64,000 nt of DNA from Eledone cirrhosa (taxonomy: Eukaryota), in the NCBI GenBank assembly GCA_964016885.1, contig OZ024740.1, forward strand, positions 38,688,001-38,752,000. Reading direction: 5' to 3'. Shown piece after piece: positions 3,001-59,815 of this stretch (position 1 is the stretch's first letter; every line of letters starts with the position of its first letter). Under the pieces are notes generated by a model. That model worked only from the letters and a program-made list of their open reading frames with translations. It made no database searches and was not told the DNA's origin. The position numbers were made by a program, and so were the translations under genes.

Positions 3001-6000
3001 AGAACTACTGGCAATACTATAACATATACACCATCTCTTGTCATTAAGAAAGGTTAACAGTAGAACTACTAGCAATACTATAACATATACACCATCTGTT
3101 GTCATTAAGAAGGGTTAACAGTAGATCTACTGGCAATACTATAACATATACACCATCTCTTGTCATTAATAAGGGTTAACAGTAGAACTACTAGCAATAC
3201 TATAACATATATACCATCTCTTGTCATTAAGAAGGGTTAACAGTAGAACTACCGGCAATACTATAACATATACACCATCTCTTGTCATTAATAAGGGTTA
3301 ACAGTAGAACTACTGGCAATACTATAACATATATACATCGCTTGTCATTAACAAGAGTTAACAGTAGAACTACTGGCAATACTATAACATATACACCATC
3401 TCTTGTCATTAAGAAGGGTTAACAGTAGAGCTATTGGTAATACTATAACATATACACCATCTCTTGTCATTAAGAATGGTTAACAGTAGAACTATTTGCA
3501 ATACTATGACATATACACCTTCTCTTTTCATTAACAAGTGTTAACAGTAGAACTACTGGCATTACTATAAGATATACACCATCTCTTGTCATTAACAAGA
3601 GTTAACAGTAGAATTAGTGTCAATACTATAACATATACACCATCTCTTGTCATTAAGAAGTGTTAACCGTAGAACTACTGGCAATACTATAACATATACA
3701 CCATCTCTTGTCATTAAGAAAGGTTAACAGTAGAACTACTAGCAATACTATAACATATACACCATCTGTTGTCATTAAGAAGGGTTAACAGTAGATCTAC
3801 TGGCAATACTATAACATATACACCATCCTCTGTCATTAAGAAGGGTTAACAGTAGAACTACTGGCAATACTATAACATATACACCATCTCTTGTCATTAA
3901 GAAAGGTTAACAGTAGAACTACTAGCAATACTATAACATATACACCATCTGTTGTCATTAAGAAGGGTTAACAGTAGATCTACTGGCAATACTATAACAT
4001 ATACACCATCTCTTGTCATTAATAAGGGTTAACAGTAGAACTACTAGCAATACTATAACATATATACCATCTCTTGTCATTAAGAAGGGTTAACAGTAGA
4101 ACTACCAGCAATACTATAACATATACACCATCTCTTGTCATTAATAAGGGTTAACAGTAGAACTACTGGCAATACTATAACATATATACCATCGCTTGTC
4201 ATTAACAAGAGTTAACAGTAGAACTACTGGCAATACTATAAAATATACACCATCTCTTGTCATTAAGAAGGGTTAACAGTAGAGCTATTGGCAATACTAT
4301 AACATATACACCATCTCTTGTCATTAAGAAGGGTTAACAGTAGAACTACTTCCAATACTATGACATATACACCATCTCTTTTCATTAACAAGGGTTAACA
4401 GTAGAACTACTGGCAATACTATAAGACATACACCATCTCTTGTCATTAACAAGAGTTAACAGTAGAACTACTGTCAATACTATAATATATATACCATCTC
4501 TTGTCATTAAGAAGGGATAACAGTAGAACTACTGACAATACTATAACATATGCACCATCCCTTGTCATTAAGAAGTGTTAACCGTAGAACTACTGGCAAT
4601 ACTATAACATATACACCATCTTTTGTCATTAAGAAGTGTTAACACTAGAACTACTGGCAATACTATGACATATACACCATCTCTTGTCATTAAAAGGGTT
4701 AACAGTAGAACTACTGGCAATACTATAACATATACACCATCTCTTGTCATTAACAAGGGTTAATAGTAGAACTGCTGGCAATACTATAACGTATAAACCA
4801 TCTCTTGTCATTAAGAAGGGTTAACAGTAGAACGACTGGCAATACATATATACCATCTCTTGTCATTAACAAGAATTAACAGTAGAACTACTGTCAATAC
4901 TATAACATATACACCATCTAGAACTATTGGCAATACTATAAAGTATACACCATCTCTCGTCATTAAGAAGGGTTAACAGTAGAACTACTGGCACTACTAT
5001 AACATATATACCATCTCTTGTCAGTAACAAGGGTTAACAGTGGAACTATTAGCAATACTATAACATATACACCATCTCTTGTCATTAAGAAGGGTTAACA
5101 GTAGAACTACTGGCAATACTATAACATATACACCATCTCTTGTCATTAAGAAGGGTTAATAGTAGAAATACTGGCAATTCTATAACATATACACTATCTC
5201 TTGTCATTAAGAAGGGTTAACAGTAGAACTACTGCCAATACTATAACATATACACCATCTAGAACTATTGGCAATACTATAAAGTATACACCATCTCTCG
5301 TCATTAAGAAGGGTTAACAGTAGAACTACTGGCACTACTATAACATATATACCATCTCTTGTCAGTAACAAGGGTTAACAGTAGAACTACTGGCACTACT
5401 ATAACATATATACCATCTCTTGTCATTAACAAGGGTTAACAGTGGAACTATTAGCAATACTATAACATATACACCATCTCTTGTCATTAAGAATGGTTAA
5501 CAGTAGAACTACTGGCAATACTATAACATATACACCATCTCTTGACATTAAGAAGGGTTAACAGTAGAACTACTGGCAATACTATAACTTATACACCATA
5601 TCTTGTCATTAACAAGGGTTAACAGTAGAACTATCTGCAATACTATAACATATACACCATCTCTTGTCATTAACAAGGGTTAACAGTAGAACTACTGGCA
5701 ATACTATAAAATATACACCATCTCTTGTCATTAACAAGGGTTAACAGTAGAACTACTGGCAATACTATAACATATATACCATCTCTTGTAATTAACAAGG
5801 GTTAACAGTAGAACTACGGACAATACTATAAGATATACACCATCTCTTGTCATTAACAAGAGTTAACCGTAGAACTACTGTCAATACTATAACATATATA
5901 CCATCTCTTGTCATTAAGAAGGGTTAACAGTATAACTACTGGAAATACTATAACATATACACCATCTCTTGTCATTAAGAATGGTTAACAGTAGAACTAC

Positions 6001-9000
6001 TGGCAATACTATAACATATATACCGTCTCTTGTCATTAAGAAGGGTTAACAGTATAACTGCTGGAAATACTATAACATATACACCATCTCTTGTTATTAA
6101 GAATGGTTCACAGTAGAACTACTTGCAATACTATGACACATACACCATCTCTTGTCATTAAGAAGGGTTAACAGTAGAACTACTGGCAATACTATAAGAT
6201 ATACACCATCTCTTGTCATTAACAAGAATTAACAGTAGAACTACTGTCAATACTATAACATATACACCATCTCTTGTCATTAAAAAGGGTTAACTGTAGA
6301 ACTACTTGCAACAATATAACATATACACCATCTCTTGTCATTAAAAGGGTTAACAGTAGAACTACTGGCAATACTATAACATATACACCATCTCTTGTCA
6401 TTAACAAGGGTTAACAGTAGAACTGCTGGCAATACTATAACATATAAACCATCTCTTGTCATTAAGAAGGGTTAACAGTAGAACGACTGGCAATACATAT
6501 ATACCATCTCTTGTCATTAACAAGGGTTAACAGTAGAACTATTCGCAATACTATAACATATACACCATCTCTTGTCATTAAGAAGGGTTAATAGTAGAAA
6601 TACTGGCAATACTATAACATATACACTATCTCTTGTCATTAAGAAGGGTTAACAGTAGAACTACTGGCAATACTATAACATATACACCATCTAGAACTAT
6701 TTGCAATACTATAAAATATACACCATCTCTCGTCATTAAGAAGGGTTAACAGTAGAACCACTGGCACTACTATAACATATATACCATCTCTTGTCAGTAA
6801 CAAGGGTTAACAGTAGAACTACTGGCAATACTATAACATATACACCATCTCTTGTCATTAAGATGGGTTAACAGTAGAGCTATTGGTAATACTATAACAT
6901 ATACACCATCTCTTGTCATTAAGAATGGTTAACAGTAGAACTATTTGCAATACTATGACATATACACCTTCTCTTTTCATTAACAAGTGTTAACAGTAGA
7001 ACTACTGGCATTACTATAAGATATACACCATCTCTTGTCATTAACAAGAGTTAACAGTAGAATTAGTGTCAATACTATAACATATACACCATCTCTTGTC
7101 ATTAAGAAGTGTTAACCGTAGAACTACTGGCAATACTATAACATATACACCATCTCTTGTCATTAAGAAGGGTTAACAGTAGAACTACTTGCAATACTAT
7201 AACATATACACCATCCTCTGTCATTAAGAAGGGTTAACAGTAGAACTACTGGCAATACTATAACATATACACCATCTCTTGTCATTAAGAAAGGTTAACA
7301 GTAGAACTACTAGCAATACTATAACATATACACCATCTGTTGTCATTAAGAAGGGTTAACAGTAGATCTACTGGCAATACTATAACATATACACCATCTC
7401 TTGTCATTAATAAGGGTTAACAGTAGAACTACTAGCAATACTATAACATATATACCATCTCTTGTCATTAAGAAGGGTTAACAGTAGAACTACCAGCAAT
7501 ACTATAACATATACACCATCTCTTGTCATTAATAAGGGTTAACAGTAGAACTACTGGCAATACTATAACATATATACCATCGCTTGTCATTAACAAGAGT
7601 TAACAGTAGAACTACTGGCAATACTATAAAATATACACCATCTCTTGTCATTAAGAAGGGTTAACAGTAGAGCTATTGGCAATACTATAACATATACACC
7701 ATCTCTTGTCATTAAGAAGGGTTAACAGTAGAACTACTTCCAATACTATGACATATACACCATCTCTTTTCATTAACAAGGGTTAACAGTAGAACTACTG
7801 GCAATACTATAAGACATACACCATCTCTTGTCATTAACAAGAGTTAACAGTAGAACTACTGTCAATACTATAATATATATACCATCTCTTGTCATTAAGA
7901 AGGGATAACAGTAGAACTACTGACAATACTATAACATATGCACCATCCCTTGTCATTAAGAAGTGTTAACCGTAGAACTACTGGCAATACTATAACATAT
8001 ACACCATCTTTTGTCATTAAGAAGTGTTAACACTAGAACTACTGGCAATACTATAACATATACACCATCTGTTGTCATTAAGAAAGGTTAACAGTAGAAC
8101 TACTAGCAATACTATAACATATACACCATCTCTTGTCATTAAAAGGGTTAACAGTAGAACTACTGGCAATACTATAACATATACACCATCTCTTGTCATT
8201 AACAAGGGTTAACAGTAGAACTGCTGGCAATACTATAACATATAAACCATCTCTTGTCATTAAGAAGGGTTAACAGTAGAACGACTGGCAATACATATAT
8301 ACCATCTCTTGTCATTAACAAGAATTAACAGTAGAACTACTGTCAATACTATAACATATACACCATCTAGAACTATTGGCAATACTATAAAGTATACACC
8401 ATCTCTCGTCATTAAGAAGGGTTAACAGTAGAACTACTGGCACTACTATAACATATATACCATGTCTTGTCAGTAACAAGGGTTAACAGTGGAACTATTA
8501 GCAATACTATAACATATACACCATCTCTTGTCATTAAGAAGGGTTAACAGTAGAACTACTGGCAATACTATAACATATACACCATCTCTTGTCATTAAGA
8601 AGGGTTAATAGTAGAAATACTGGCAATTCTATAACATATACACTATCTCTTGTCATTAAGAAGGGTTAACAGTAGAACTACTGGCAATACTATAACATAT
8701 ACACCATCTAGAACTATTGGCAATACTATAAAGTATACACCATCTCTCGTCATTAAGAAGGGTTAACAGTAGAACTACTGGCACTACTATAACATATATA
8801 CCATCTCTTGTCAGTAACAAGGGTTAACAGTAGAACTACTGGCACTACTATAACATATATACCATCTCTTGTCATTAACAAGGGTTAACAGTGGAACTAT
8901 TAGCAATACTATAACATATACACCATCTCTTGTCATTAAGAAGGGTTAACAGTAGAACTACTGGCAATACTATAACATATACACCATCTCTTGACATTAA

Positions 9001-12000
9001 GAAGGGTTAACAGTAGAACTACTGGCAATACTATAACTTATACACCATATCTTGTCATTAACAAGGGTTAACAGTAGAACTATCTGCAATACTATAACAT
9101 ATACACCATCTCTTGTCATTAACAAGGGTTAACAGTAGAACTACTGGCAATACTATAAAATATACACCATCTCTTGTCATTAACAAGGGTTAACAGTAGA
9201 ACTACTGGCAATACTATAACATATATACCATCTCTTGTAATTAACAAGGGTTAACAGTAGAACTACGGACAATACTATAAGATATACACCATCTCTTGTC
9301 ATTAACAAGAGTTAACCGTAGAACTACTGGAAATACTATAACATATATACCATCTCTTGTCATTAAGAAGGGTTAACAGTATAACTACTGGAAATACTAT
9401 AACATATACACCATCTCTTGTCATTAAGAATGGTTAACAGTAGAACTACTGGCAATACTATAACATATATACCGTCTCTTGTCATTAAGAAGGGTTAACA
9501 GTATAACTGCTGGAAATACTATAACATATACACCATCTCTTGTTATTAAGAATGGTTCACAGTAGAACTACTTGCAATACTATGACACATACACCATCTC
9601 TTGTCATTAAGAAGGGTTAACAGTAGAACTACTGGCAATACTATAAGATATACACCATCTCTTGTCATTAACAAGAATTAACAGTAGAACTACTGTCAAT
9701 ACTATAACATATACACCATCTCTTGTCATTAAAAAGGGTTAACTGTAGAACTACTTGCAACAATATAACATATACACCATCTCTTGTCATTAAAAGGGTT
9801 AACAGTAGAACTACTGGCAATACTATAACATATACACCATCTCTTGTCATTAACAAGGGTTAACAGTAGAACTGCTGGCAATACTATAACATATAAACCA
9901 TCTCTTGTCATTAAGAAGGCTTAACAGTAGAACGACTGGCAATACATATATACCATCTCTTGTCATTAACAAGGGTTAACAGTAGAACTATTCGCAATAC
10001 TATAACATATACACCATCTCTTGTCATTAAGAAGGGTTAATAGTAGAAATACTGGCAATACTATAACATATACACTATCTCTTGTCATTAAGAAGGGTTA
10101 ACAGTAGAACTACTGGCAATACTATAACATATACACCATCTAGAACTATTGGCAATACTATAAAATATACACCATCTCTCGTCATTAAGAAGGGTTAACA
10201 GTAGAACTACTGGCACTACTATAACATATATACCATCTCTTGTCAGTAACAAGGGTTAACAGTAGAACTACTGGCAATACTATAACATATACACCATCTC
10301 TTGTCATTAAGAAGGGTTAACAGTAGAACTACAGGCAATACTATCACATATACACTATCTCTTGTCATTAACAAGGGTTAACAGTGGAACTATTAGCAAT
10401 ACTATAACATATACACCATCTCTTGTCATTAAGAAGGGTTAACAGTAGAACTACTGGCAATACTATAACATATACACCATCTCTTGACATTAAGAATGGT
10501 TAACAGTAGAACTACTGGCAATACTATAACTTATACACCATATCTTGTCATTAACAAGGGTTAACAGTAGAACTACTGGCAATACTATAAAATATACACC
10601 ATCTCTTGTCATTAAGAATGGTTAACAGTAGAACTACTTGCAATACTATGACATATACACCATCTCTTTTCATTAACAAGGGTTAACAGTAGAACTACTG
10701 GCAATACTATAAGATATACACCATCTCTTGTCCTTAGCAAGAGTTAACAGTAGAACTACTGTCAATACTATAACATATACACCATCTCTTGTCATTAAGA
10801 AGGGTTAACATTAGAATTACTGGCAATACTATAACATATACACCATCTCTTGTCATTAATAAGGGTTAACAGTAGAACTACTGGCAATACTATAACATAT
10901 ATACGATCGCTTGTCATTAAGAAGGGTTAACAGTAGAACTACTGGCAATACTATAACATATATACCACCGCTTGTCATTAACAAGAGTTAACAGTAGAAA
11001 CTACTGGCAATACTATAAAAGATACATCATCTCTTGTCATTAACAAGGGTTAACAGTAGAACTACTGGCAATACTATAACATATACACCATCTCTTGTCA
11101 TTAAGAAGGGTTAACAGTAGAACTATTGGCAATACTATAACATATACACCATCTCTTGTCATTAAGAAGGGTTAACAGTATAACTACTGGAAATACTATA
11201 ACATATACACCATCTCTTGTCATTAAAAAGAATTAACAGTAGAACTACTGTCAATACTATAACATATACACCATCTCTTGTCATTAAGAAGGGTTAACAG
11301 AAGAACTACTGGCAATACTATAATATATCCACCATCCCTTGTTATTAAGAAGTGTTAGCCGTACAACTACTGGCAATACTATAAGATATACACCATCTCT
11401 TGTCATTAAGAAGAGTTAACAGTAGAACTACTGGCAATACTATAACATATACACCATCTTTTGTCATTAAGAAGGGTTAACAGTAGAACTATTGGCAATA
11501 CTATAACATATACACCATCTCTTGTCATTAAGAAGGGTTAACAGTAGAACTATTGGCAATACTATAACATATATACCATCTCTTTTCATTAACAAGTGTT
11601 AACAGTAGAACTACTGGCAATACTATAACATAAACAGCATCTCTTGTCATTAACAAGAGTTAACAGTAGAACTACTGGCAATACTATAACATATATACCA
11701 TCTCTTGTCATTAAGAAGGGTTAACAGAAGAACTACTGGAAATACTATAACATATACACCATCTCTTGTCATTAAGAATGGTTAACAGTAGAACTATTTG
11801 CAATACTATGACATATACACCATCTCTTGTCATTAAGAAGGGTTAACAGTAGAACTACTGGCAATACTATAACATATACACCATCTCTTGTCATTAATAA
11901 GGGTTAACAGTAGAACTACTAGCAATACTATAACATATATACCATCTCTTGTCATTAACAAGGGTTAACATTAGAACTACTGGCAATACTATAACATATA

Positions 12001-15000
12001 CACCATCTCTTGTCATTAACAAGAGTTAACATTAGAACTACTGGCAATACTATAACATATACACCATCTCTTGTCATTAAGAAGGGTTAACAGTAGAGCT
12101 ATTGGCAATACTATAACATATACACCATCTCTTGTCATTAAGAAGGGTTAACATTATAACTACTGGTAATACTATAACATATATACCATCTCTTGTCATT
12201 AACAAGGGTTAACAGTAGAACTACTGGCAACACTATAACATATACACCATCTCTTGTCATTAAAAGGGTTAACAGTAGAACTACTGGCAATACTATAACA
12301 TATACACCATCTCTTGTCATTAACAAGGGTTAACAGTAGAACTGCTGGCAATACTATAACATATAAACCATCTCTTGTCATTAAGAAGGGTTAACAGTAG
12401 AACGACTGGCAATACATATATACCATCTCTTGTCATAAACAAGGGTTAACAGTAGAACTACTGTCAATACTATAACATATACACCATCTCTTGTCATTAA
12501 GAATGGTTAACAGTAGAACTACTGGCAATACTATAACATATCCACCATCCCTTCTCATTAAGAAGTGTTAACCGTAGAACTACTGGCAATATTATAACAT
12601 ATACACCATCTCTTGTCATTAAGAAGGGTTAACAGTAGAACTACTGGCAATACTATAACATATACACCATCTTTTGTCATTAAGAAGGGTTAACAGTAGA
12701 ACTACTGGCAATACTATAACATATACACCATTTATTGTCATTAAGAAAGTTTAACAGTAGAACTACTAGCAATACTATAACATATACACCATCTCTTGTC
12801 ATTAAGAAGGGTTAACAGTAGATCTACTGGCAATACTATAACATATACACCACCTCTTGTCATTAATAAGGGTTAACAGTAGAACTACTAGCAATACTAT
12901 AACATATATACCATCTCCTGTCATTAACAAGGGTTAACATTAGAACTACTGGCAATACTATAAGATATACACCATCTCTTGTCATTAATAAGGGTTAACA
13001 GTAGAACTACTGGCAATACTATAACATAAATACCATCGCTTGTCATTAAGAAGGGTTAATAGTAGAACTACTGGCAATACTATAACATATAAACCATCTC
13101 TTGTCATCAATAAAGGTTAACAGTAGAACTACTGGCAATACTATAACATATATACCATCGCTTGTAATTAACAAGAGTTAACAGTAGAACTACTGGCAAT
13201 ACTATAACATATAAACCATCTCTTGTCATTAATAATGGTTAACAGTAAAACTACTGGCAATACTGTAACATATACACCATCTCTTTTTGTTAACAAGAGT
13301 TAACAGTAGAACTACTGGCAATACTATAAAATAAACACCATCTCTTGTCATTAACAAGGGTCAACAGTAGAACTACTGGCTATACTATAACATATATACA
13401 ATCTCTTGTCATTAACAAGGGTTAACAGTAGAACTACTGGCAACACTATAACATATACACCATCTCTTGTCATTAAGAAGGGTTAACAGTAGCACGACTG
13501 GCAATACATATATACCATCTCTTGTCATTAACAAGGGTTAACAGTAGAACTATTCGCAATACTATAACATATACACCATCTCTTGTCATTAAGAAGGGTT
13601 AACAGTAGAACTACTGGCAATACTATAACATATACTCCATCTCTTGTCATTAAGAAGGGTTAACAATAGAACTACAGGCAATACTGTCACATATACACCA
13701 TATCTTGTCATTAACAAGGGTTAACAGTAGAACTATTCGCAATACTATAACATATACACCATCTCTTGTCATTAACAAGGGTTAACAGTAGAACTACTGG
13801 CAATACTATAAAATATACACCATCTCTTGTCATTAACAAGGGTTAACAGTAGAACTACTGGCAATACTATAACATATATACCATCTCTTGTCATTAACAA
13901 GTGTTAACAGTAGAACTACTGGCAATACTATAACATATACACCATCTCTTGTCATTAAGAAGGGTTAACAGTAGAACTACTGGCAATACTATAACATAAA
14001 CACCATCTCTTGACATTAAGAAGGGTTAACAGTAGAACTACTGGCAATACTATAATTTATACACCATATCTTGTCATTAAGAAGGGTTAACAGTAGAACT
14101 ACAGGCAATACTATAATTTATACACAATATCTTGTCATTAACAAGTGTTAACAGTAGAACTGCTGGCAATACTATAACATATAAACCATCTCTTGTCATT
14201 AAGAAGGGTTAACAGTAGAACGACTGGCAATACATATATACAATCTCTTGTCATTAACAAGGGTTAACAGTAGAACTATTCGCAATAATATAACATATAC
14301 ACCATCTCTTGTCATTAAGAAGGGTTAACAGTAGAAATACTGGCAATACTATAACATATACACTATCTCTTGTCATTAAGAAGGGTTAACAGTAGAACTA
14401 CTGGCAATACTATAACATATACACCATCTAGAACTATTGGCAATACTATAAAATATACACCATCTCTTGTCATTAAGAAGGGTTAACAGTAGAACTACTG
14501 GCAATACTATAACATATACACCATCTCTTGACATTAAGAAGGGTTAACAGTAGAACTACTGGCAATACTATAACTTATACACCATATCTTGTCATTAACA
14601 AGGGTTAACAGTGGAACTATTCGCAATACTATAACATATACACCATCTCTTGTCATTAAGAAGGGTTAACAGTAGAACTACTGGCAATACTATAACATAT
14701 ACACCATCTCTTGACATTAAGAAGGGTTAACAGTAGAACTACTGGCAATACTATAACTTATACACCATATCTTGTCATTAACAAGGGTTAACAGTAGAAC
14801 TATTCGCAATACTATAACATATACACCATCTCTTGTCATTAACAAGGATTAACAGTAGAACTACTGGCAATACTATAAAATATACACCATCTCTAGTCAT
14901 TAAGAAGGGTTAACAGTAGAACTACTGGCTATACTATAACATATATACCACCTCTTGTAATTAACAAGGGTTAACAGTAGAACTACTGGCAATACTATAA

Positions 15001-18000
15001 CATATATACCATCTCTTGTCATTAAGAAGGGTTAACAATATAACTGCTAGAAATACTATAACATATACACCATCTCTTGTCATTAAGAATGGTTAACAGT
15101 AGAACTACTTGCAATACTATGACATATACACCATCTCTTTTCATTTACAAGGGTTAACAGTAGAACTACTGGAAATACTATAACATATACACCATCTCTT
15201 GTCATTAAGAATGGTTAACAGTAGAACTATTTGCAATACTATGACATATACACCATCTCTTTTCATTAACAAGTGTTAACAGTAGAACTACTGGCAATAC
15301 TATAAGATATACACCATCACTTGTAATTAACAAGGGTTAACAGTAGAACTACTGGCAATACGATAACATATATACCATCTCTTGTCATTAAGAAGGGTTA
15401 ACAGTATAACTGCTGGAAATACTATAACATATACACCATCTCTTGTCATTAAGAATGGATAACAGTAGAACTACTTGCAATACTATGACATATACACCAT
15501 CTCTTTTCATTAACAAGTGTTAACAGTAGAGCTACTGGCAATACTATAAGATATACACCATCTCTTGTCATTAACAAGAATGAACAGTAGAACTACTGTC
15601 AATACTATAACATATACACCATCTCTTGTCATTAAGAAGGGTTAACAGTAGAACTACTGGCAATACTATAACATATACACCATCTCTTGTCATTAAGAAG
15701 GGTTAACAGTAGAACTACAGGCAATACTGTCACATATACACCATATCTTGTCATTAACAAGGGTTAACAGTAGAACTACTGGCAATACTATAACATATAC
15801 ACCATCTCTTGTCATTAACAAGGGTTAACAGTAGAACTACTGGCAATACTATAACATATACAGCATCTCTTGTCATTAACAAGGGTTAACAGTAGAACTA
15901 CTGGCAATACTATAACCTATACACCATCTCTTGTCATTAATAAGGGTTAACAGTAGAACTACTGGCAATACTATAACATATACACCATCTCTTGTCGTTA
16001 ACAAATGTTAACAGTAGAACTACTGGCAATACTATAACATATACACCATCTCTTGTCATTAACAAGGGTTAACAGTAGAACTACTGGCAATACTATAACA
16101 TATACACCATCTCTTGTCATTAACAAGGGTTAACAGTAGAACTACTGGCAATACTATAACCTATACCCCATCTCTTGTTATTAACAAGGGTTAACAGTAG
16201 AACTACTGGCAATACTGTAACATATACACCATCTCTTGTCATTAACAAATGTTAACAGTAGAACTACTGGCAACACTATACCATATACACCATCTCTTGT
16301 CATTAAAAGGGTTAACAGTAGAACTACTGGCAATACTATAACATATACACCATCTCTTGTCATTAACAAGGGTTAACAGTAGAACTGCTGGCAATACTAC
16401 AACATATAAACCATCTCTTGTCATTAAGAAGGGTTAACAGTAAAACGACTGGCAATACATATATACCATCTCTTGTCATTAACAAGGGTTAACAGTATAA
16501 CTACAGGCAATACTATCACATATACACTATCTCTTGTCATTAACAAGGTTAACATTGGAACTATTCGCAATACTATAACATCTACACCATCTCTTGTCAT
16601 TAAGAAGTGTTAACAGTAGAACTACTGGCAATACTATAACATATACACCATCTCTTGACATTAAGAAAGGTTAACAGTAGAACTACTGGCAATACTATAA
16701 CTTATACACCATATCTTGTCATTAACATGGGTTAACAGTAGAACTATTCGCAATACTATAACATATACACCATCTCTTGTCATTAACAAGGGTTATAAGT
16801 AGAACTACTGGCAATACTATAAAATATACACCATCTCTATTCATTAACAAGGGTTAACAGTAGAACTACTGGAAATACTATAACATATATACCATCTCTT
16901 GTCATTAACAAGTGTTAACAGTAGAACTACTGGCAATACTATAACATATACACCATCTCTTGTCATTAAGAAGGGTTAACAGTAGAACAACTGGCAATAC
17001 TATAACATATACACCATCTCTTGTCATTAAGAAGGGTTAACAGTAGAACTACTGGCAATACTATAACATATATACCATCTCTTGTCATTAAGAAGTGTTA
17101 ACAGTATAACTACTGGAAATACTATAACATATACACCATCTCTTGTCATTAACAAGGGTTAACAGTAGAACTACTGGCAATACTATCACATATACACCCT
17201 CTCTTGTCATTAAGAAACGTTAACATTAGAACTACTGTCAATACTATAACATATACACCATCTCTTGTCATTAATAAGGGTTAACAGTAGAACTACTGGC
17301 AATACTATATCATATACACCATCTCTTTTCGTTAACAAAGGTTAACAGTAGAACTACTGGCAATACTATGACATATACACCATCTCTTGTCATTAAGAAG
17401 GGTTAACAGTAGAACTACTGGCAATACTATAAAATATACACCATCTCTTGTCATTAACAAGGGTTAAGAGTAGAACTACTGGCAATACTATAACCTATAC
17501 ACCACCTCTTGTCATTAATAAGGGTTAACAGTAGAACTACTGGCAATACTATAACATATACACCATCTCTTGTCGTTAACAAAGGTTAACAGTAGAACTA
17601 CTGGCAATACTATAACATATACACCATCTCTTGTCATTAACAAGGGTTAACAGTAGAACTACTGGCAATACTATAACATATACACCATCTCTTGTCATTA
17701 ACAAGGGTTAACAGTAGAACTACTGGCAATACTATAACCTATACACCATCTCTTGTCATTAATAAGGGTTAACAGTAGAACTACTGGCAATACTATAACA
17801 TATACACCATCTCTTGTCGTTAACAAAGGTTAACAGTAGAACTACTGGCAATACTATGACATATACACCATCTCTTGTCATTAAGAAGGGTTAACAGTAG
17901 AACTACTGGCAATACTATAAAATATACACCATCTCTTGTCATTAACAAGGGTTAAGAGTAGAACTACTGGCAATACTATAACCTATACACCACCTCTTGT

Positions 18001-18540
18001 CATTAATAAGGGTTAACAGTAGAACTACTGGCAATACTATAACCCATACCCCATCTCTTGTTATTAACAAGGGTTAACAGTAGAACTACTGGCAATACTG
18101 TAACATATACACCATCTCTTGTCATTAACAAGGGTTAACAGTAGAACTACTGGCAATACTATAACATATACAAATCTCTTGTCATTAACAAGGGTTAACA
18201 GTAGAACTACTGGCAATACTATAACATATACACCATCTCTTGTCATTAAGAAGGGTTAACAGTAGAACTATTGACGATACTATAACATATACCCCATCTC
18301 TTGTCATTAACAAGGGTTAACAGTAGAACTACTGTCAATACTATAACATATATACCATCTCTTGTCATTAAGAAGGGTTAACAGTAGTACTACTGGCAAT
18401 ACTATAACATATACACATCTCTTGTCATTAACAAGGGTTAACAGTAGAACTACTGGCAATACTATAACATATATACCATCTCTTGTCATTAAGAAGGGTT
18501 AACAGTAGAACTAATGGCAATACTGTAACATATACATCCT
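1..18540. repeat. 61-bp tandem satellite array (~300 monomers, continues beyond left edge)
   Basis: Consensus TAACAGTAGAACTACTGGCAATACTATAACATATACACCATCTCTTGTCATTAAGAAGGGT repeated head-to-tail. Recurrent 36-bp (ACCATCT^AGAACT) and 55-bp (GAACGACTGGCAATAC^ATATA) deletion variants are present. Confidence 0.98.
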
Positions 18541-20013: not shown

Positions 20014-20145
20014 CTTTAGCAATTGGCATGATTCTCCAAACTATGACAGGTCCTCCTTTAGCGTATTGACCTATACAAGTCTCCAGGTAGGCCAGGGGTA
20101 AGCCACATACCATCATTAGAACTAGGTAGGCAACACAAAACGCTC
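20014..20145 (-). CDS. SLC6 (neurotransmitter:sodium symporter family) exon, TM2-IL1
   Basis: 132-bp exon with acceptor ttcttctaattttag| and donor |gttact, phase 1 at both ends. Encodes (G)AFCVAYLVLMMVCGLPLAYLETCIGQYAKGGPVIVWRIMPIAK(G), matching the SLC6 motif GAF..PY......G.P...LE...GQY...G....W...P..KG. Confidence 0.9.
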
Positions 20146-20828: not shown

Positions 20829-21135
20829 CTCCACCATTTTTAGCAGCACAGGAAGCAAAGTGTAAAATGGAGCTGATATTTAGAGCCAACGAACTCACAG
20901 AGAAGAAATAATCTATCTGATTCTGCCATCCATCTTCAGGATCTTTTGGTGGATTTCTTTCATAGTAACGAACAGGAACACTGCTTTCTGAATAATCTGG
21001 TGACATCACTTCTTGAATGACTTCACTATATGCTTCAGGGATAGACACGTTGTCATTATGAGATTGGTCAGAATCACTTAAACAGAGGTCAGACTCATCT
21101 AGATAAGCAATCCGTATCCCGGCATTTGCTGTACT
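20829..21135 (-). CDS. SLC6 exon, N-terminus and divergent TM1
   Basis: 307-bp open exon with acceptor ttctgttttaattccag| (phase 0) and donor GGTGGAG|gtgag (phase 1), splicing in frame to the 20145 exon. It ends ...EDGWQNQIDYFFSVSSLALNISSILHFASCAAKNGG(G), which aligns without gaps to SLC6 W..K.DF..S......NGGG. No upstream exon or start was identified. Confidence 0.85.
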
Positions 21136-21466
21136 CTGGAATTAAAACAGAAATATAGAAAACAAAGTTAAACATGTGAGAAATTACAATATTAAAAATA
21201 ACATCAAACATTAACTATGTTTAACAATTTTAGAACTGGTTATAGTCCTGGCTGCAGAAATTGTGCCACAAACCTACATGTTGACTGAAATAAGAGCCAC
21301 ATTGTATATTATATATAGTCCTGATTGTACAATTTAACCCTAACTATGGGTTACATTGCCTCACCAACCTGCAATTGGCCAAGTGTGGTGTGTATGGCTA
21401 CACCCTTGGCATAAACCAAACCAAGCAGAAAGCACTGGAGATCAACCAGGGAGAAGATCATCACCA

Positions 21467-21647: not shown

Positions 21648-21854
21648 CACATACACACACACACACACATATGTATACACACACATATATGTATACACAC
21701 CCACACATGTTTACATACCACACCTATATGTATACACACACACCCCCACACACATATATATATTTCGTATTTCTAAAGAAACACGGTATGTTTACAGGAA
21801 ACATTTAGGAAGCCGTAGCTATGGAAACACTGGAGCTAACGCCCTCTGGTGGTG

Positions 21855-21946
21855 TCCAACAGAAGCAAGGGGGACAACCGTCTATGCATTTCAGGCTTGA
21901 CTGGCCTTCGTCAGGACAGTCCCTCCCACCGCTTGCTACTGCTGGA
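21855..21946 (-). ncRNA. Type I hammerhead ribozyme (left arm)
   Basis: Minus strand ACTGTC-CTGACGA-AGGC(cagtcaa)GCCT-GAAA-TGCA-TA^-GACGGT. Distal stem I is TCCAGCAGTAGCAAG/CTTGCTTCTGTTGGA. Confidence 0.8.
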
Positions 21947-22189
21947 CTTGAGAACAGTCGAGAATATATAGTTTTCTCGTCTGTGTAAATGAGGTGATTA
22001 ATCTCATTTGCATATGAAGCTGCATAAGTTGGCTCAACTTATAATAGAATAGAAATAGGATTTCACTTCAAGCATAGCTTTATACAATATGTATAGAGAT
22101 TTCGTATTTCTGAACTTGCTTCATATGCAAATGAGATTAATCACCTCATTTATAGACGAGAAAACTATATATTCTTGACTGTTCTCAAG

Positions 22190-22281
22190 TCCAGCAGTAG
22201 CAAGGGGTGGGAGGGACTGTCCTGATGAAGGCCAGTCAAGCTTGAAATGCATAGACAGTTGTCCCCCTTGATTCTGCTGGA
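22190..22281 (+). ncRNA. Type I hammerhead ribozyme (right arm)
   Basis: ACTGTC(22216-21)-CTGATGA(22222-28)-AGGC/GCTT stem II-GAAA(22244-47)-TGCA-TA^(22253)-GACAGT. Stem III is the palindrome ATGCAT. Distal stem I is TCCAGCAG..CAAGGGG/CCCCTTG..CTGCTGGA. Confidence 0.8.
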
Positions 22282-22412
22282 CACCACCAGAGGGCGTTAG
22301 CTCCGGTGTTTGCATAGCTATGGCTTCCTAAATGATTCCTGTAAAGAAATCATGTTTCTTTAGGGATACAAAATCTCTATACATATCTGTATAAAACTAT
22401 GCTTGAAGCTAA

Positions 22413-24540
<2,128 letters not shown>

Positions 24541-33306: not shown

Positions 33307-36300
33307 AATAATAATAATAATGAAATTATTGTGTAAAGTGCTCAGGTGCACTACAACTCATCAAAGGTGCATGTATAGTACATAGAATAATTGTTTCTAC
33401 TTTTGGCACAAGGCCAGCAATTACCCAGTACATTACTGGTACTTTATTTTATCGACCCCGTAAGGATGAAAGGCAAAGTTAACCTCGGCGGGATTTGAAC
33501 TCAGACCGTAAAGGGACGTAACTATGCTGGAAAGCATGGCGTCCGACTCTCTACTGATACTGCCAATCTACCGTCCTTAGTACATAGAATAATATACAAA
33601 TATCAGGGAAGTGAGTAGTGTATGAGTCATGATATACATGTGTGTATGTATATGGAGGGGGAACATTAGGTGTAGTGTTGGCAAATCTCGGGAAGCATGG
33701 AGGTTTTAAAGGATGCAATGTCTCGACAGCTAACAACTGATGCAGGTAGTTTGTTCCATGCTTCAGCAACTCTGAGCGTGAAAAAATGTTTCCGAAAGTC
33801 ATGGGAGCTGTGCTGTTTTCTGACTTTGTGGGCATGCCCACGTGTGTTAGACACATGGAAATCAAAAAGGTACTCAGGGTTGTTGTTGGCAACATGGTTA
33901 ACAATTTTGTGGATGTTTACCAAGTCAGTTGCCAGACATCGGAGCTTCAATGTATCCATGCCCAGGGAAGCAAGGCATTCAGAGTATGGTAGATTCCTGA
34001 TGGAGGGTATTCGCTTGGTTGCTCTGAACAGTTTCCAGGCGGTCAATGTTCTGAGCAAGATAGGGGTTCCAGACTGGTGATGCAAATTCTAAGTGTGGCC
34101 GCACAATAGCCATGTACAGCCTTAAATAGATAGCTGGAGAGCGGCTGACAAAGGTCTTGCTGAGTGATGCTAAGACACCCTCGGCCCTCTTGACAATTTT
34201 AGAGACGTGCTTCATCCAACGCAAATCGCTGCTGACCGTAATGCCCAGGTCACGTTCACAAGAAGACTTCTTGATATTAGTGCTGTGGAGGGAGTATGTG
34301 GACGCTGGGTTTTTACTCCCAAAATGCATGGTGGTGCACTTGTCCACAGCTAGCTTGAGTGCCAGTCTGAGATCCATTGTTGCATTGTGTCCAGGTCAGA
34401 CTACAAACAAGATCTATAGTGTTCAGGATCTGTCCTTTTTATCTCAAGGTACAGCTTGATGTCATCTGCATACTTTAGTACTGTGGCATTCTTTAAGTTG
34501 GCATCTATGTCATTAATATATGCTACAAACAAAAGGGGACCAAGAACAGATCCCTGTGGTACACCAGATGACATCTCATATGGTGAGGAATGCTGTCCCA
34601 GAACCGTGACCATCTCTCTTCGACTGAGAATGAAGGACTTCAACCAGTTAAAAAGATCATCCTTCACACCCATTGCAGAGAGTTTTGCTATAAGCCTTTT
34701 GGTGGCACAGAATTGAAAGCTTTCGCAAAGTCAAGGTAAACAACATCCACCCATGAGCCGCCATCAGTGATCCGGGTGATGTCTTCAAGAAACTCGATAA
34801 GTTGATCACAGCAGCTGGATTTGGGGATAAATCCAAATTGCGAGGGTCGGATAAGACTGTGAGAGTTCCATAAGTTCCAAAGTGTTTCTCTGACACAGGA
34901 TTCCATCAGTTTGGCAATGCAACTAGTAAGACTGACTGGACGATAGTTCACAGGTGATGTGTGGTCACTCTTTTTGAACAGAGGAATGACATTGGCAGTT
35001 TTCCACTGTTCTGGAGTAGCACCGTTGTTCAGACAGAATTGGAAGAAGCGAGATAGCTGGTGCAGAAGCAAGTACCCACCATGTTTAAGAAGCAGGTACG
35101 TAACACCATCAAGACCAGGAGAGGCATGGTTGCGTTTATTTTTTAGGTGATGTTCCAGCATTGCAGGTGTAAATTCTATGGTTGTAATAGAATCCGGTGT
35201 CGTAGGTGGTGGAGACGGTACACTCTGGTCTTCAATAGGGAAAATGCCTGCATAGCATTCAGCAATGAGCTCTGCACCTTCCTTGGGGTCATCAGTAACC
35301 TGGCTTGTGTGGGGATTGTGAAGAGGACCAACTGGAGAGTGAGGCCTCTACTTTGAGTGAACATACTTCCAGAACACCTTACTGTCAGGGCTGGTTGCTA
35401 TGCGCTGCTCAAATTGAAGCACTGCCTTTTTTGTCACCTGTTTGAGGTGGTTGGACGATCTATTTCGCCTCTTCCTATTAATGTCTGATTTGTGCAGTTC
35501 TACTCACGTTCAGCATTGCGACGTTCTTTTCTGGCAAGACGGACTGCTGCAGTCTCCCAAATTGCACTTTTGGGATGTTTTTTCCGCTTACATGGCACCG
35601 ATGCTGCACATGCTGTCCATATTGAGCTCAGGATGTTCTGGAGTAGTGTTGACATCTCCAGAGTCGTAGAACTCAAGCCAGTTTGGACGTTGCAACTCGG
35701 TGCAGTAACAGTTCCACTCTGCTTTATTCCAGTCAAAGTGAGCAGTTTGGAGATGGTTGTGGTTCTTGTTACTGCCCATGAGGGATAGATTGGCAATGAT
35801 CATAGCATGATCAGAGTCACCTAAAGGTTCCTCAACAGTAACACTAATGACCGTTTCAGGAGTAGTGGTGAAGAGTAGGTCCAAAGTGTTGTCACCTCTT
35901 GTTGGGGAGGTGACTACTTGGGACCAATTCGAGTCCAGCACTAGCTCAAGGAAGTCATTTGCACTTGGTGGCCAACAAAAGGTTTCCCAGTCAATCTCGG
36001 GGTGATTGAAGTCTCCTGCAATAAAAACATAAGTAGCTGTTTTCCTGACAGCAGCTCTGAGGATATCACAAAGTTGAGTGTCCTGATGGTAATTTGGGGG
36101 TCAGTAAACGACTCCAAGTAGCAGTATTGACATGGTCATACATATATCACAGAAAAAACTTCCTGCTGTGATTAGTTCAAATCAACACAAGGAATTGCCA
36201 ACAAATTTGACCGAACGTAGACCATTACACCACCACGATTAATGCGGTCTTTACGAAACAGGTTGTAGCCAGTTATACTAAAAACCTCATCACAGAGTAA

Positions 36301-36990
36301 AGGATGTGCCCAAGTTTCCGTGACTAATGAAGTCAGGGTTGATACTTTTGACGTAGGAGTCAAAAAGATGAATCTTATTGCATAGACTACGTGCATTCAA
36401 GGACAACAATTTGTACCTTGATTCCAGTATATGATTATTGTGCAGGGGATGGCAGGTTGTTCTGATTTAGTTTCCCAGAGTTTATTTCAGTTTTTTTTAT
36501 TGTCAGTTGTTGTGGGTGCAGTGTTTTCAGACCAGCTGGTATCTCTTTTCCATGTTTCACCAGCCTTAACAAATTTCCATATCTGCACATCATCACGTAG
36601 GCTGAAGCTTTCATGTTCTGCCGAGCTGCAGTTTAAGGAAGCTGCAGCACGCTACTTTGGGCAGACATCAGGTGGAAGACCAGGGCATGTTCGGAAAGCA
36701 ATCCGACTTTCACGCCTAGCTTTATCAGAGGCTACAAGGTATGAACGTGCCTCAGTTGAGTTCGAAAACGACATTCTAATTAGCCTGGGTTTCGGGCCTT
36801 GTTGGCCAAGGCGTAGAGCACCCTTTGTGGGAGCACAGCCCAAGTCTCTGGATGAACTGGCAGCAAATGCCTGAAGATCAACTATGTCTTCTGGTACACC
36901 AATGGCAATCACTTCGTGGTTTGCAGATTCAGTGGCATTCTCAATGCGTCTAGGTTCAACATGAGGTACGCGGAGATGTATCAAGCGATG
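33307..36990 (-). mobile_element. Near full-length degenerate CR1-clade LINE (ORF1 remnant + APE-RT ORF2)
   Basis: APE motifs VTETW, RKDR..RGGV, GDFN.P.IDW, PTRGDNTLDL, GDSDH. RT motifs PGLDG, NYRPVSLTS, YLDFAKAF, GVPQGSVLGPLLF, YADD. ORF1-like GVPE...RLG....KPRLI. The (ATT)n tail is at 33307-33325. Many frameshifts. Confidence 0.93.
33392..33577 (-). mobile_element. SINE family A nested in the CR1 3' UTR
   Basis: 16-bp target duplication TAGTACATAGAATAAT at 33376-33391 and 33578-33593. Confidence 0.9.
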
Positions 36991-37073
36991 GCATTACACA
37001 TCATATAATAATAATAATGAATGGCCTATTTTCATCTGTCACTTTTTTATGTGGCTTCCATCTGCTACCACTT

Positions 37074-39079: not shown

Positions 39080-39081
39080 TG

Positions 39082-39132
39082 AGATTCTACAGGACTAGAA
39101 CTGTTTCATTCTTTAGAAATCATCAGGAATCT
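39082..39132 (-). ncRNA. Type I hammerhead ribozyme in the inverted pLTR
   Basis: Reverse complement of 46247-46297. Confidence 0.75.
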
Positions 39133-39557
39133 GGGTATCAAAAAATAAGTATGGTATTTATAGGTCTCTACAAGTGGTAGGAGAGGGTGGGGAGTTGGAT
39201 GGGTGTAGGTCATTGGTTGATAGAAAAGGGAATTCATTAAAAGCTAATTCTACAAAGCTATAGTTTATTTTTATTTATTTTTGTTTTTAGAGTAACAAAG
39301 GCAGACAGAATTCTATAAACAGGTTCAGGATGGCAAGCCATTCCTTGTTATTAAGTTTCTCTTAAGCTAACAGGTGTCTATAAGATCAGTGGGGGGTCAG
39401 TCATGGTAGATAGATTTAAAGGAAAGGGAGATTCTTTAAAAGCTAAATTCATTAAGGTGCTACTAAGTGACAAAGGTTTAGAGAATTCTGTAGACAAATT
39501 CAGAATATTGAGTGCATATCTTACAATTATCCTCAAATTTCTCGTAAAGTAATAGAG

Positions 39558-41264
39558 ATGGCACTGACTGAGACAAACACGGCCGGAAAAGAAATCGCCA
39601 AGTCCCTTAAATTACACGACCGAACCGAACCTTTAAGGGTAAAGACCCCGCACTTTACCCTGAAGGACCATAAGGGAAACTTCCTCAACAAACCATCAGT
39701 CAGACTTATCAACCCCACTCGTTCTGACATCGGCTCTATCAGTAAGAAGATCCTGGATAGAGTTCTACCATCATTGCGGGCTGCCTCACCACTTCCACTC
39801 TGGAGCAGAACATCTGAGGCAATATCATGGTTCCAAAAATTACCCGACAAACACCACACTCGCTTCCTGCAACTCGATATAGAAAACTACTATGCCTCTA
39901 TCTCGGAGCCCCTCCTGAAGGACGCAATTAACTTTGCAAGGAATTTTACCACCATTACCGATGCTGAGCAAGTTGTTATCCTCCACGCTCGTAAGACCTT
40001 TCTATACCACGATGGATCTTACTGGATCAACAAGAAATCTCAGACCCCATTTGATGTTAGCATGGGAGCGAGTGACTCGGCTGAAATTAGCGACCTTGTG
40101 GGCCTGTACATCCTACATCACTTGAAGAACCTCTTTACCGGCCTAACGGGAGGTTTATACCGAGACGACGGCCTCTTCGCCCTGCATAAGGTTAACCCCA
40201 GAACCACCGATGGGTTTCGGAAAAACTTAAGCTCATTCTTCTCTAATCTAGGATTTAGTATAACTATAGAATCTAATTTGACTAGGGCCAACTTCTTAGA
40301 TGTCACTCTCGACCTAGATACTTCCCTCTATTACCCGTACCACAAACCTAACGAGTCCCTTAAATATATTAATGTTAATTCAAACCACCCCCAAAACATC
40401 ACTGATAACCTAGTAAAAAGCGTCTCTATTAGAATATCTGGCCTCTCCGCCAACAAAGATATTTTTAACGCATCTGCCTCCTACTACAATGACGCCCTCA
40501 CCCGTAGCGGATTTAAAGAAAAGATAACATACCTAGAAACCACCGCAAGATTGCAGAGGAGGAATAGACATAGGCAGATTAGCTGGTACAACCCTCCCTT
40601 CAATAGAGAGGTCTCTACTCCGATAGCTAGGATTTTCTTCACTTTGCTGAAATTACACTTCCCCATACAACATAGGTACCACACCATCTTTAATAAGAAC
40701 ACAATAAGACTCTCCTACTCCACCACACCTAACCTAGCTAGGAATATAGCCAACCACAATTCTAAAAAATTAAATAAGCCAACCACCTCCGAACCCAATC
40801 CCCGGACTGGGGCTCTGTGTAATTGCCTAAATAAGGAAGCATGCCCACTTGAAAACAAATGCCTCACAAATGATATCGTATACAAATGCGATGTCATCTT
40901 AGGCACCGATGATTGCAAAAAAACTTACATCGGCATGACCTCCAACAACTTTAAGACCCGTTGGTATGCCCATACCCACTCCTTCAGAAGACCGGACAAA
41001 TCAAACCAGACAACACTCGCCTCCTACGTTTGGGACCTCAAAAAAAACTCCACCCCCTTCACGCTTAAATGGAAAATACTCCAGAAAGCGCGCTCTTACA
41101 ACGGAGGACACAAGGGCTGCGACCTTTGTATTTCAGAGAGCTACGAAATTTTATTCGCCAAGGGACCGCTACTGAACAAACTCTCTGAACACTGCCCGAA
41201 CTGCATGCACAAGAACTTTGCAACTTTCAAACACTTTAAGCCAGTGTTAAAACCAGATGGCTAA
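39558..41264 (+). CDS. Penelope-like reverse transcriptase + GIY-YIG endonuclease (5'-truncated, uninterrupted 568 aa)
   Basis: RT motifs LKDHK, RLINP, LDIENYY.SI, MGA.DSAE, YRDDG, FLDVTL, PYHKP. Endonuclease CNC...CP...C..IVY...YIGMT...FK.R..H, then CDLC..E...LLN...C.H. The motif pattern resembles Naiad-type PLEs (inference). Confidence 0.92.
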   Translation: MALTETNTAGKEIAKSLKLHDRTEPLRVKTPHFTLKDHKGNFLNKPSVRLINPTRSDIGSISKKILDRVLPSLRAASPLPLWSRTSEAISWFQKLPDKHHTRFLQLDIENYYASISEPLLKDAINFARNFTTITDAEQVVILHARKTFLYHDGSYWINKKSQTPFDVSMGASDSAEISDLVGLYILHHLKNLFTGLTGGLYRDDGLFALHKVNPRTTDGFRKNLSSFFSNLGFSITIESNLTRANFLDVTLDLDTSLYYPYHKPNESLKYINVNSNHPQNITDNLVKSVSIRISGLSANKDIFNASASYYNDALTRSGFKEKITYLETTARLQRRNRHRQISWYNPPFNREVSTPIARIFFTLLKLHFPIQHRYHTIFNKNTIRLSYSTTPNLARNIANHNSKKLNKPTTSEPNPRTGALCNCLNKEACPLENKCLTNDIVYKCDVILGTDDCKKTYIGMTSNNFKTRWYAHTHSFRRPDKSNQTTLASYVWDLKKNSTPFTLKWKILQKARSYNGGHKGCDLCISESYEILFAKGPLLNKLSEHCPNCMHKNFATFKHFKPVLKPDG

Positions 41265-41439
41265 AAACGACCTCCTCCTATTGGCCCCTATACCTCCTTC
41301 CCACCCTACCCCCACCCCTCCTCAACCTGAAATACGGTCACTATGGTTATGTGAGTACCTCTTACCTATCTACATTTTCTGCCTGTAGAGGTGTTTTTAT
41401 GTGCCTGCGTATATGAGTATATTTATTGAGTACTTATTT

Positions 41440-59430: not shown

Positions 59431-59815
59431 GAGGTATATGGCTTAGTGGTTAGAGCATTGGCCTTGCAATGGAGGCACTTGGCTTAGTGGTTAGAGCATT
59501 GGCCTTGCAATCGAAAGGTTGTGAGTTCAATTCTCAGACTGGGTGATGTGTTGTTTCCTTGAGCAAGACACTTTATTTCACGTTGCTCCAGTTTACTCAG
59601 CTGTAGAAATGAGATGATAGGGACTGGGGTCCATATCATTCCACTGCAAAGTGGTCGTGCAGGTGCCACGTCAAAAAAAGCACCCAGCACTCACTGTAAA
59701 TGAGGTTGGTGTTAGGAAGGGCATCCAGCTATAGAAATCAAGCCAGAATCAGTTCCCGTCCCACCCTTTCAAGCAGGGAAAAGCGGACGTAAACTGAAAT
59801 GAATGAATGAATGAA
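59431..59815 (+). mobile_element. SINE family B with duplicated 5' head
   Basis: 59431-59470 repeats the first ~40 nt of the full copy starting at 59471; (GAAT)n tail. Confidence 0.9.

What the first reader, a model, noticed from the sequence alone, without database searches (positions are those of the whole stretch)
21763..22415. ORF-less inverted element with two hammerhead ribozymes inside the SLC6 intron
Seen: ~255-bp inverted arms, each with a complete type I hammerhead (CUGAYGA / GAAA / AUA). Each has a palindromic AUGCAU stem III and an unusually long stem I (6 bp + internal loop + ~15-18 bp). Several arm differences preserve pairing (GCCT/GCTT, GACGGT/GACAGT, CTGTTGGA/CTGCTGGA: G-C vs G-U). 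Established: PLE pseudo-LTRs and retrozymes carry hammerheads, and those with a palindromic stem III cleave as dimers. Inference: a non-autonomous PLE-derived or retrozyme-like family. One copy is sense to the SLC6 pre-mRNA ~720 nt upstream of the acceptor, so ribozyme folding competes with a long hairpin that would silence it and be an ADAR substrate.
Basis: partly seen in the sequence, partly recalled or inferred. Interest (0 to 1): 0.75.

Follow-up and report, generated by a model that had tools for sequence, protein, structure and literature searches.

The report
Two-armed Penelope-type retrozyme copy
This is one ageing copy of a scattered, protein-free repeat carrying a self-cutting-RNA (hammerhead) motif, likely pasted as two back-to-back arms by a Penelope-type jumping-gene enzyme into what protein homology marks as a 272-kb intron of a transporter gene, where its own long hairpin is predicted to keep the ribozyme switched off.

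Summary
The arms and both type I hammerheads are real. The element is not a fixed palindrome. It is one insertion of a dispersed non-LTR retrozyme family with 338- and 322-nt head-to-tail monomers, no long ORF, and roughly 1,000-3,500 copies. The 'spacer' is monomer sequence. In 28 of 59 loci the arms are joined 5'-to-5' and in none 3'-to-3'; breakpoints vary between loci. Outer ends fall in two AT-rich zones about 40 nt apart, usually beside microsatellites, one zone per arm in 15 of 19 informative loci. That is the Penelope-like element (PLE) inverted-copy and tail footprint. One locus fuses the retrozyme to a PLE fragment inside what looks like one insertion. The SLC6 intron is supported by homology (272 kb). 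The 'pair-preserving' arm differences are mostly ordinary transitions and CpG decay. Real covariation exists only between source variants (stem II G-C to A-U). The whole-element hairpin beats the hammerhead fold by about 80 kcal/mol, and the two ribozymes lie on opposite strands, so this copy is likely silent. No RNA data were available. The scan found the same kind of element before in other families of this genome. Verdict: new member of a known kind.

The parts
21763..22112 (-). Left arm: about 1.04 monomers of the 338-nt subfamily (monomer position about m106 through the unit junction and ribozyme to about m128), ending at RT-start zone A; sense to SLC6 pre-mRNA
   Evidence: (10 differences in 349 from the subfamily majority)
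21854..21947 (-). Type I hammerhead, left arm: extended stem I, CUGACGA 21914-21908, stem II 21907-21893, GAAA 21892-21889, AUGCAU, predicted cut 21883|21882
22113..22117 (.). 5'-to-5' inversion junction (a few filler or rearranged bases)
22118..22415 (+). Right arm: 5'-truncated monomer (about m201 through the ribozyme to about m161-172), ending at RT-start zone B (carries the tail); antisense to SLC6
   Evidence: (24 differences in 298)
22189..22282 (+). Type I hammerhead, right arm: CUGAUGA 22222-22228, stem II 22229-22243, GAAA 22244-22247, predicted cut 22253|22254; more decayed than the left copy
   Evidence: an exact 43-nt DNA contig covers 22227-22269 in run X2
21648..21762 (.). (CA)n/(TA)n microsatellite flank, left side of the target
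22416..24540 (.). Long (TA)n-type tract, right side of the target (end approximate; interrupted by another repeat)
20829..21135 (-). SLC6 (sodium:neurotransmitter symporter) coding exon downstream of the element; acceptor at 21136
20014..20145 (-). Next SLC6 coding exon (Pfam SNF, E 4e-11)

Best explanation
This is one decaying genomic copy of a dispersed, protein-free hammerhead repeat family (a non-LTR retrozyme), likely inserted by a Penelope-like element's enzyme copying the RNA from both ends of a break in a microsatellite, and predicted to be catalytically silent in the SLC6 intron. Steps: (1) Shown: the family unit is a 338- or 322-nt head-to-tail monomer with one type I hammerhead; copies hold 0.5-2.3 units. 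(2) Inferred: source loci make multimeric or circular RNA, and ribozyme function is selected in those sources, not in the dispersed copies. (3) Inferred: a PLE reverse transcriptase/GIY-YIG endonuclease cuts both strands of AT-rich DNA and primes two cDNAs internally on the RNA, usually one at zone A (m114-145) and one at zone B (m151-184), downstream of the ribozyme cut. (4) Shown as a footprint: the two truncated products are joined 5'-to-5', giving inverted arms. (5) Shown: copies then decay, with CpG sites changing 2-3 times faster. (6) Predicted: in SLC6 pre-mRNA the antisense arm is made first and zips up the sense ribozyme, which would also need a same-strand partner for its palindromic stem III.
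For: Family size: 3,012 and 3,417 candidate places; 155 exact core words and 312 exact junction words against 0 in controls. Monomer 338/322 nt, GC 0.43, longest ATG frame 55 aa; circular fold z -7.6 against 40 shuffles. Architecture in 59 non-redundant loci: 28 joined 5'-to-5', 0 abutting 3'-to-3', 37 longer than one monomer; 15 of 23 inverted in the pattern-drawn sample; breakpoints vary. Ends: 80 of 91 outer 3' ends in m114-184 and 70 of 91 beside a microsatellite; arms use different zones in 15 of 19 informative loci, 48% expected, p 0.006. Opposed arms share a source: same subfamily in 36 of 37 comparisons; 5.75 shared rare variants per kb against 0.84 between unrelated loci. An ORF-bearing PLE family in this genome shows the same two (TA)n-flanked end sites and opposed arms. 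L082 joins a retrozyme arm ending at zone B to a 5'-truncated copy of that PLE ending at its own end site. Stem II covaries G-C to A-U in 6 of 68 sequences. Literature: inverted 5'-truncated copy, 30-40-bp tail and (TA)n bias are PLE traits (PMC8557442, passages); a purified PLE protein cleaves and extends both strands and starts RT at two internal sites (PMC11167929).
Against: No autonomous parent found: none of 30 single-piece loci shares a 5' flank, and neither PLE family tested resembles the monomer. The chimera is 1 of 59 loci, and another odd end (L051) runs into a fragment of the window's other RT-encoding repeat, RTE-like by recall, so a LINE contribution or later rearrangement is not excluded. 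Rfam does not recognise the motif. Most rare variants are not shared between arms or tandem units (87-89%), and L050's units differ at 48, so a single circular template is not shown. The window's arms differ in divergence: 6 of 349 against 20 of 298 private changes, p 0.002. I cannot explain this fully; half of the right-arm changes lie next to the long TA tract, where no exact read contig covered them. 5' ends are not enriched at the cut site (4 of 93). The loci are best hits or intact-core hits, not a random sample.
Confidence: 0.85

Rival explanations
1. The insertion has been co-opted as an intronic switch: the sense ribozyme cuts SLC6 pre-mRNA when the hairpin is opened by ADAR editing or co-transcriptional folding.
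For: The sense arm is closer to the family majority than the antisense arm (2.9% against 8.1%), its core is intact and it folds correctly alone. It lies 747 nt upstream of the acceptor. Extensive ADAR editing in coleoids is recalled, not from a call.
Against: The hairpin is favoured by about 80 kcal/mol even in the nascent transcript. Stem III is dimer-type and the second ribozyme is on the other strand (PMC4209133 passages). 28 of 59 family loci have the same layout, so nothing marks this one. The 272-kb intron also holds another sense-strand hammerhead at minus 39126. Arm identities differ as much at other loci.
Confidence: 0.04
2. The arms are terminal (pseudo-LTR) fragments of an autonomous PLE, truncated before the ORF, rather than an independent retrozyme.
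For: All insertion traits are those of PLEs. Retrozyme monomers are reported to be related to pseudo-LTRs in Xenopus (bioRxiv 2026.07.22.740005).
Against: Monomers join directly head-to-tail with no ORF between them (L002, L050, L082; 37 of 59 loci exceed one unit). No locus has an ORF or shared sequence 5' of the unit. The longest frame is 55 aa.
Confidence: 0.07
3. The element is a MITE or fold-back DNA transposon with long terminal inverted repeats, or a post-insertion inverted duplication.
For: ORF-less with long inverted arms.
Against: Arm lengths, breakpoints and outer ends vary between loci. The two outer ends usually differ by the tail. Polarity is always 5'-to-5' (28 against 0). About half of the loci have one arm only.
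Confidence: 0.03

Closest known systems
Metazoan non-LTR retrozymes (Cervera and de la Pena 2020, PMC7229834, passages read; Li, Clavereau and Pollet, bioRxiv 10.64898/2026.07.22.740005, parts 1-3 of 5 read, supplements not seen)
   Same: Type I hammerhead in a roughly 330-nt, low-GC, protein-free head-to-tail unit; monomers and dimers dispersed in thousands of places; co-existence with PLEs; frequent intronic location (42-44% of copies in Xenopus).
   Different: No long arrays seen here (at most 2.3 units in 59 loci). About half of the insertions are 5'-to-5' inverted with two end zones, which the passages read do not describe. Stem I is extended to about 27 pairs. Linear and circular RNA and cleavage are untested here.
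Endonuclease-bearing Penelope-like elements with pseudo-LTR hammerheads (PMC8557442 and PMC4209133, passages read; PMC11167929, parts 1-2 of 4 read)
   Same: Partial tandems, inverted 5'-truncated copy, roughly 40-nt tail at one end, (TA)n targets, 3' ends internal to the RNA and downstream of the hammerhead, palindromic stem III.
   Different: No RT or GIY-YIG ORF, and no sequence similarity to the two PLE families tested, so it would be mobilised in trans.
Dimer-type amphibian hammerheads (axolotl HHR_Amex1, newt satellite 2; PMC7229834 passage)
   Same: Stem III of one or two pairs capped by a palindromic loop, weak as a monomer.
   Different: AUA triplet, long stem I, short dispersed copies rather than large arrays. 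The two ribozymes of this copy are on opposite strands and cannot dimerise in cis.

Membership tests
Non-LTR retrozyme | Type I hammerhead with complete core in the repeat unit | tested here: met
   Descriptor match in both arms; 92% of cells paired and stem II covariation in 68 copies. Rfam gave no hit.
Non-LTR retrozyme | Head-to-tail unit of about 150-450 nt, GC under 50%, no protein | tested here: met
   338/322 nt, GC 0.43, longest ATG frame 55 aa
Non-LTR retrozyme | At least two consecutive same-strand units with complete ribozymes ('active' by Li et al.) | tested here: inconclusive
   Met by the family (L002; L050 and L082 with damaged cores); not met by this copy, which has one ribozyme per strand
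Non-LTR retrozyme | Self-cleavage in vitro as monomer or dimer | not testable with these tools
   Needs transcription assays
Non-LTR retrozyme | Expression as linear and circular monomer RNA | not testable with these tools
   No RNA run was listed
Penelope-like element (autonomous) | RT plus GIY-YIG ORF | tested here: not met
   No ORF in the monomer; no PLE ORF joined 5' of any of 59 loci
PLE-type insertion product | 5' truncation, partial tandem, inverted copy at the 5' end | tested here: met
   28 of 59 joined 5'-to-5', 0 joined 3'-to-3'; 5' ends scattered
PLE-type insertion product | Tail of about 30-40 bp at one end (two RT start sites) | tested here: met
   Two end zones about 40 nt apart; discordant in 15 of 19 loci, p 0.006. 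Exact sites are blurred by TA microhomology, and the zones were drawn after seeing the ends.
PLE-type insertion product | AT-rich or microsatellite targets | tested here: met
   70 of 91 outer 3' ends beside a microsatellite; no genome background rate was computed
PLE-derived non-autonomous element | Sequence homology to the pseudo-LTR of an autonomous PLE | tested here: inconclusive
   None with the two families tested; other families not surveyed
MITE / fold-back transposon | Fixed terminal inverted repeats and constant termini | tested here: not met
   Variable arms, ends and breakpoints

The most novel reading that the evidence does not exclude
The family records in DNA that a PLE enzyme mobilises retrozyme RNA in trans by priming from both ends of one break at two internal start sites. 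L082 is a single insertion in which one end was primed on retrozyme RNA and the other on the RNA of a named-by-sequence partner PLE, with a template switch between them. That identifies a specific driver enzyme for a non-homologous retrozyme, and the two tandem units there share private variants as expected from copying round one RNA circle.
Probability: 0.45. Interest if true: 0.6.

Novelty: new member of a known kind. Interest (0 to 1): 0.33.

Why it matters
The papers read propose PLEs as the mobilisers of animal retrozymes from co-occurrence and pseudo-LTR similarity. This family adds insertion footprints (opposed arms, two start zones, microsatellite targets) and one retrozyme-PLE fusion that points to a candidate partner enzyme, so the proposal can be tested in vitro. 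The two-armed insertions also seed introns with long near-perfect hairpins, a plausible source of double-stranded RNA for editing. This particular copy is ordinary: nothing singles it out as a regulator of the SLC6 gene.

Tried and rejected
Rfam at gathering score (whole window) and at E up to 10 (21700-22450): no hammerhead family; only long-hairpin miRNA models matched. RNA evidence: no RNA holder listed. Runs X1-X3 behave as DNA contigs of one sample, running across exon-intron borders; their summed depth is not a copy number. At 100% likeness 22342-22412 had no cover in any run, which proves nothing either way. Search for an autonomous parent: PLE hits near 9 of 59 loci were separate insertions except L082; no shared 5' flanks among 30 single-piece loci; no similarity of the monomer to the L082 partner PLE or to the window's PLE end (516-871 of 1000 shuffles scored as high). 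Editing scars in copies: A>G 78 against T>C 94, p 0.40, no hyper-edited copy. 5' ends at the ribozyme cut: 4 of 93, about what a uniform spread gives. Selection on dispersed copies: core 3.3% against 3.0-5.9% in the rest of the monomer at non-CpG sites. Further chimeras among 11 atypical 3' ends: only L082 with a PLE, and L051 with another RT repeat. A first iterative consensus did not converge because two subfamilies were mixed and was redone. Literature searches listed no paper on octopod retrozymes; subscription papers are not covered. Sequence look-up in earlier scan notes: nothing for this family.

Full report
Observation. The window holds inverted arms at 21755-21982 and 22154-22381 (228 nt, 91%; about 265 nt with one gap). 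Each carries a type I hammerhead: 6-bp stem I, CUGAYGA, 4-bp stem II, GAAA, AUGCAU and an AUA triplet, with cuts predicted after 22253 (plus) and 21883 (minus). Stem I extends through internal loops to about 27 pairs. Rfam does not detect the motif, so the assignment rests on the descriptor, folding and covariation. An exact 35-nt core pattern occurs 155 times in the 3.0-Gb genome and 0 times in the reversed control.

Host context. The genome is probably an octopod's, judged from the closest protein hit, an Argonauta hians SLC6 transporter at 86% identity. Two SLC6 exons lie at 21135-20829 and 20145-20014 on the minus strand. The first 35 residues of the homologue match one place, C1:38,981,399-38,981,503 (83%), an ATG exon ending CAG|GT in phase with the window acceptor. 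The element thus lies in a 272,263-nt intron, 747 nt upstream of the acceptor. This is inferred from homology; no RNA run was available.

What the element is. DNA searches gave 3,012 and 3,417 candidate places, of which 40 were scored each time. A 37-nt junction word has 312 exact matches. With copies mostly 85-97% identical to their majority, I estimate 1,000-3,500 copies. I reduced the 90 loci by dropping overlaps and keeping 1 of 7 segmental duplicates on C1:143 Mb. They are best hits or intact-core hits, not a random sample. The unit is a head-to-tail monomer of 338 nt or, with a 16-nt deletion, 322 nt, GC 0.43, longest ATG frame 55 aa. Copies hold up to 742 nt, and 37 of 59 exceed one unit. 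The window copy is therefore a minus-strand piece of 1.04 units joined 5'-to-5' to a plus-strand piece of about 0.9 unit.

Insertion footprint. Pieces are joined 5'-to-5' in 28 of 59 loci and never abut 3'-to-3'; in the pattern-drawn subset 15 of 23 are inverted. Breakpoints vary from locus to locus, often with 1-8 nt overlap, and only 8 loci have a complete ribozyme region on both strands. Of 91 outer 3' ends, 80 lie in monomer positions 114-184, downstream of the ribozyme cut, and 70 lie beside a microsatellite. They form two zones about 40 nt apart. In 15 of 19 informative two-armed loci, including this one, each arm uses a different zone (48% expected, p 0.006; 9 loci with an atypical end left out). 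An earlier scan note (e1-8665316) prompted this test. Opposed arms belong to the same subfamily in 36 of 37 comparisons and share rare variants at 5.75 per kb against 0.84 between unrelated loci; tandem units share 4.33 per kb. Most variants are unshared, so circle and uncut multimer cannot be told apart.

Link to PLEs. Inverted 5'-truncated copies, a 30-40-bp tail at one end and (TA)n bias are described PLE traits (PMC8557442, passages). A purified PLE protein cleaves and extends both strands at AT-rich sites and starts reverse transcription at two internal RNA sites that define the tail; ribozyme cleavage was not needed (PMC11167929). An ORF-bearing PLE family here (2,570 candidates) has its own hammerhead, two (TA)n-flanked end sites, and opposed arms using one each in L093 and L100. 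In L082 a retrozyme arm ending at zone B in (TA)n is joined 5'-to-5' to a retrozyme dimer that runs directly into a 5'-truncated copy of this PLE, which ends at its own site in (TA)n. The two units there share 4 rare variants. A template switch in one insertion event is the simplest reading, but it is 1 of 59 loci, and L051 runs into a different RT repeat. The monomer has no sequence similarity to either PLE family tested, and no parent with an ORF was found.

Selection and activity. Across copies from the DNA searches the core differs at 3.3% of non-CpG calls against 3.0-5.9% in the rest of the monomer, and CpG sites at 9-16%: dispersed copies decay neutrally. One stem II pair covaries (G-C 58, A-U 6, unpaired 4 of 68), probably one inherited event, which suggests selection in source elements. 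The left arm has 10 differences in 349 and the right 24 in 298. The asymmetry is significant (p 0.002) and unexplained; heterogeneous templates, mutation beside the TA tract or assembly error are all possible. Folding at 20 C: forcing the hammerhead fold costs 1.8 kcal/mol in the sense arm alone and 80 kcal/mol in the whole or nascent minus-strand RNA. Palindromic stem III ribozymes work as same-strand dimers (PMC4209133, passages), and the second ribozyme here is on the other strand. The copy is predicted to be silent and, if transcribed, to form a hairpin of about 260 bp; editing is untested, and genomic copies show no A>G excess.

Comparison and verdict. It works like, and meets the sequence criteria of, a metazoan non-LTR retrozyme (PMC7229834, passages; bioRxiv 2026.07.22.740005, parts 1-3, supplements not seen); cleavage and circular RNA remain untested. 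It is not an autonomous PLE and not a MITE. Four literature searches listed no account of octopod retrozymes. The scan has noted the same two-armed layout in other, younger families of this genome but nothing for this sequence. New member of a known kind; interest 0.33, carried mainly by the PLE footprint and the L082 fusion rather than by the SLC6 location.

Noticed in passing
window 39080-41400 and 46253: A second, unrelated type I hammerhead family (U-U at the base of stem II, 4-bp stem III) at minus 39126 and plus 46253. The minus copy lies in an inverted piece joined 5'-to-5' to a truncated PLE ORF (RT plus C-terminal GIY-YIG, ORF 39471-41264) and ends in (TA)n. It is sense to SLC6 pre-mRNA and has no antisense arm seen nearby, so it is a better candidate for intronic cleavage, although it did not fold as a hammerhead.
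   Followed up: partly
L082:1223-3331 (G000 C2, about 214.54 Mb): Retrozyme dimer fused to a 5'-truncated PLE inside what looks like one two-armed insertion.
   Followed up: yes
L092-L121: PLE family with a roughly 1.6-kb AT-rich 3' region, a hammerhead with an all-AU palindromic stem III, and two end sites about 95 nt apart.
   Followed up: partly
L109:2388 and 2770; flanks of L002 and L014: A further small hammerhead family with a CUAG palindrome in stem III, also as an inverted pair.
   Followed up: no
window 1-18536: 61-bp satellite of about 300 copies with higher-order structure, inside the SLC6 gene downstream of the two exons.
   Followed up: no
L004-L009, L012 (G000 C1 143.35-143.80 Mb): Seven near-identical copies with shared flanks spaced 58-117 kb apart: a large segmental tandem duplication.
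   Followed up: no
window 59479-59538 (+): Weak Rfam tRNA match (29.6 bits), possibly a tRNA-derived SINE head.
   Followed up: no
window 33550-37000 (-) and 43500-45000 (+): Two LINE-type RT remnants, CR1/L2-like and RTE-like by recalled motifs, in the same intron.
   Followed up: no
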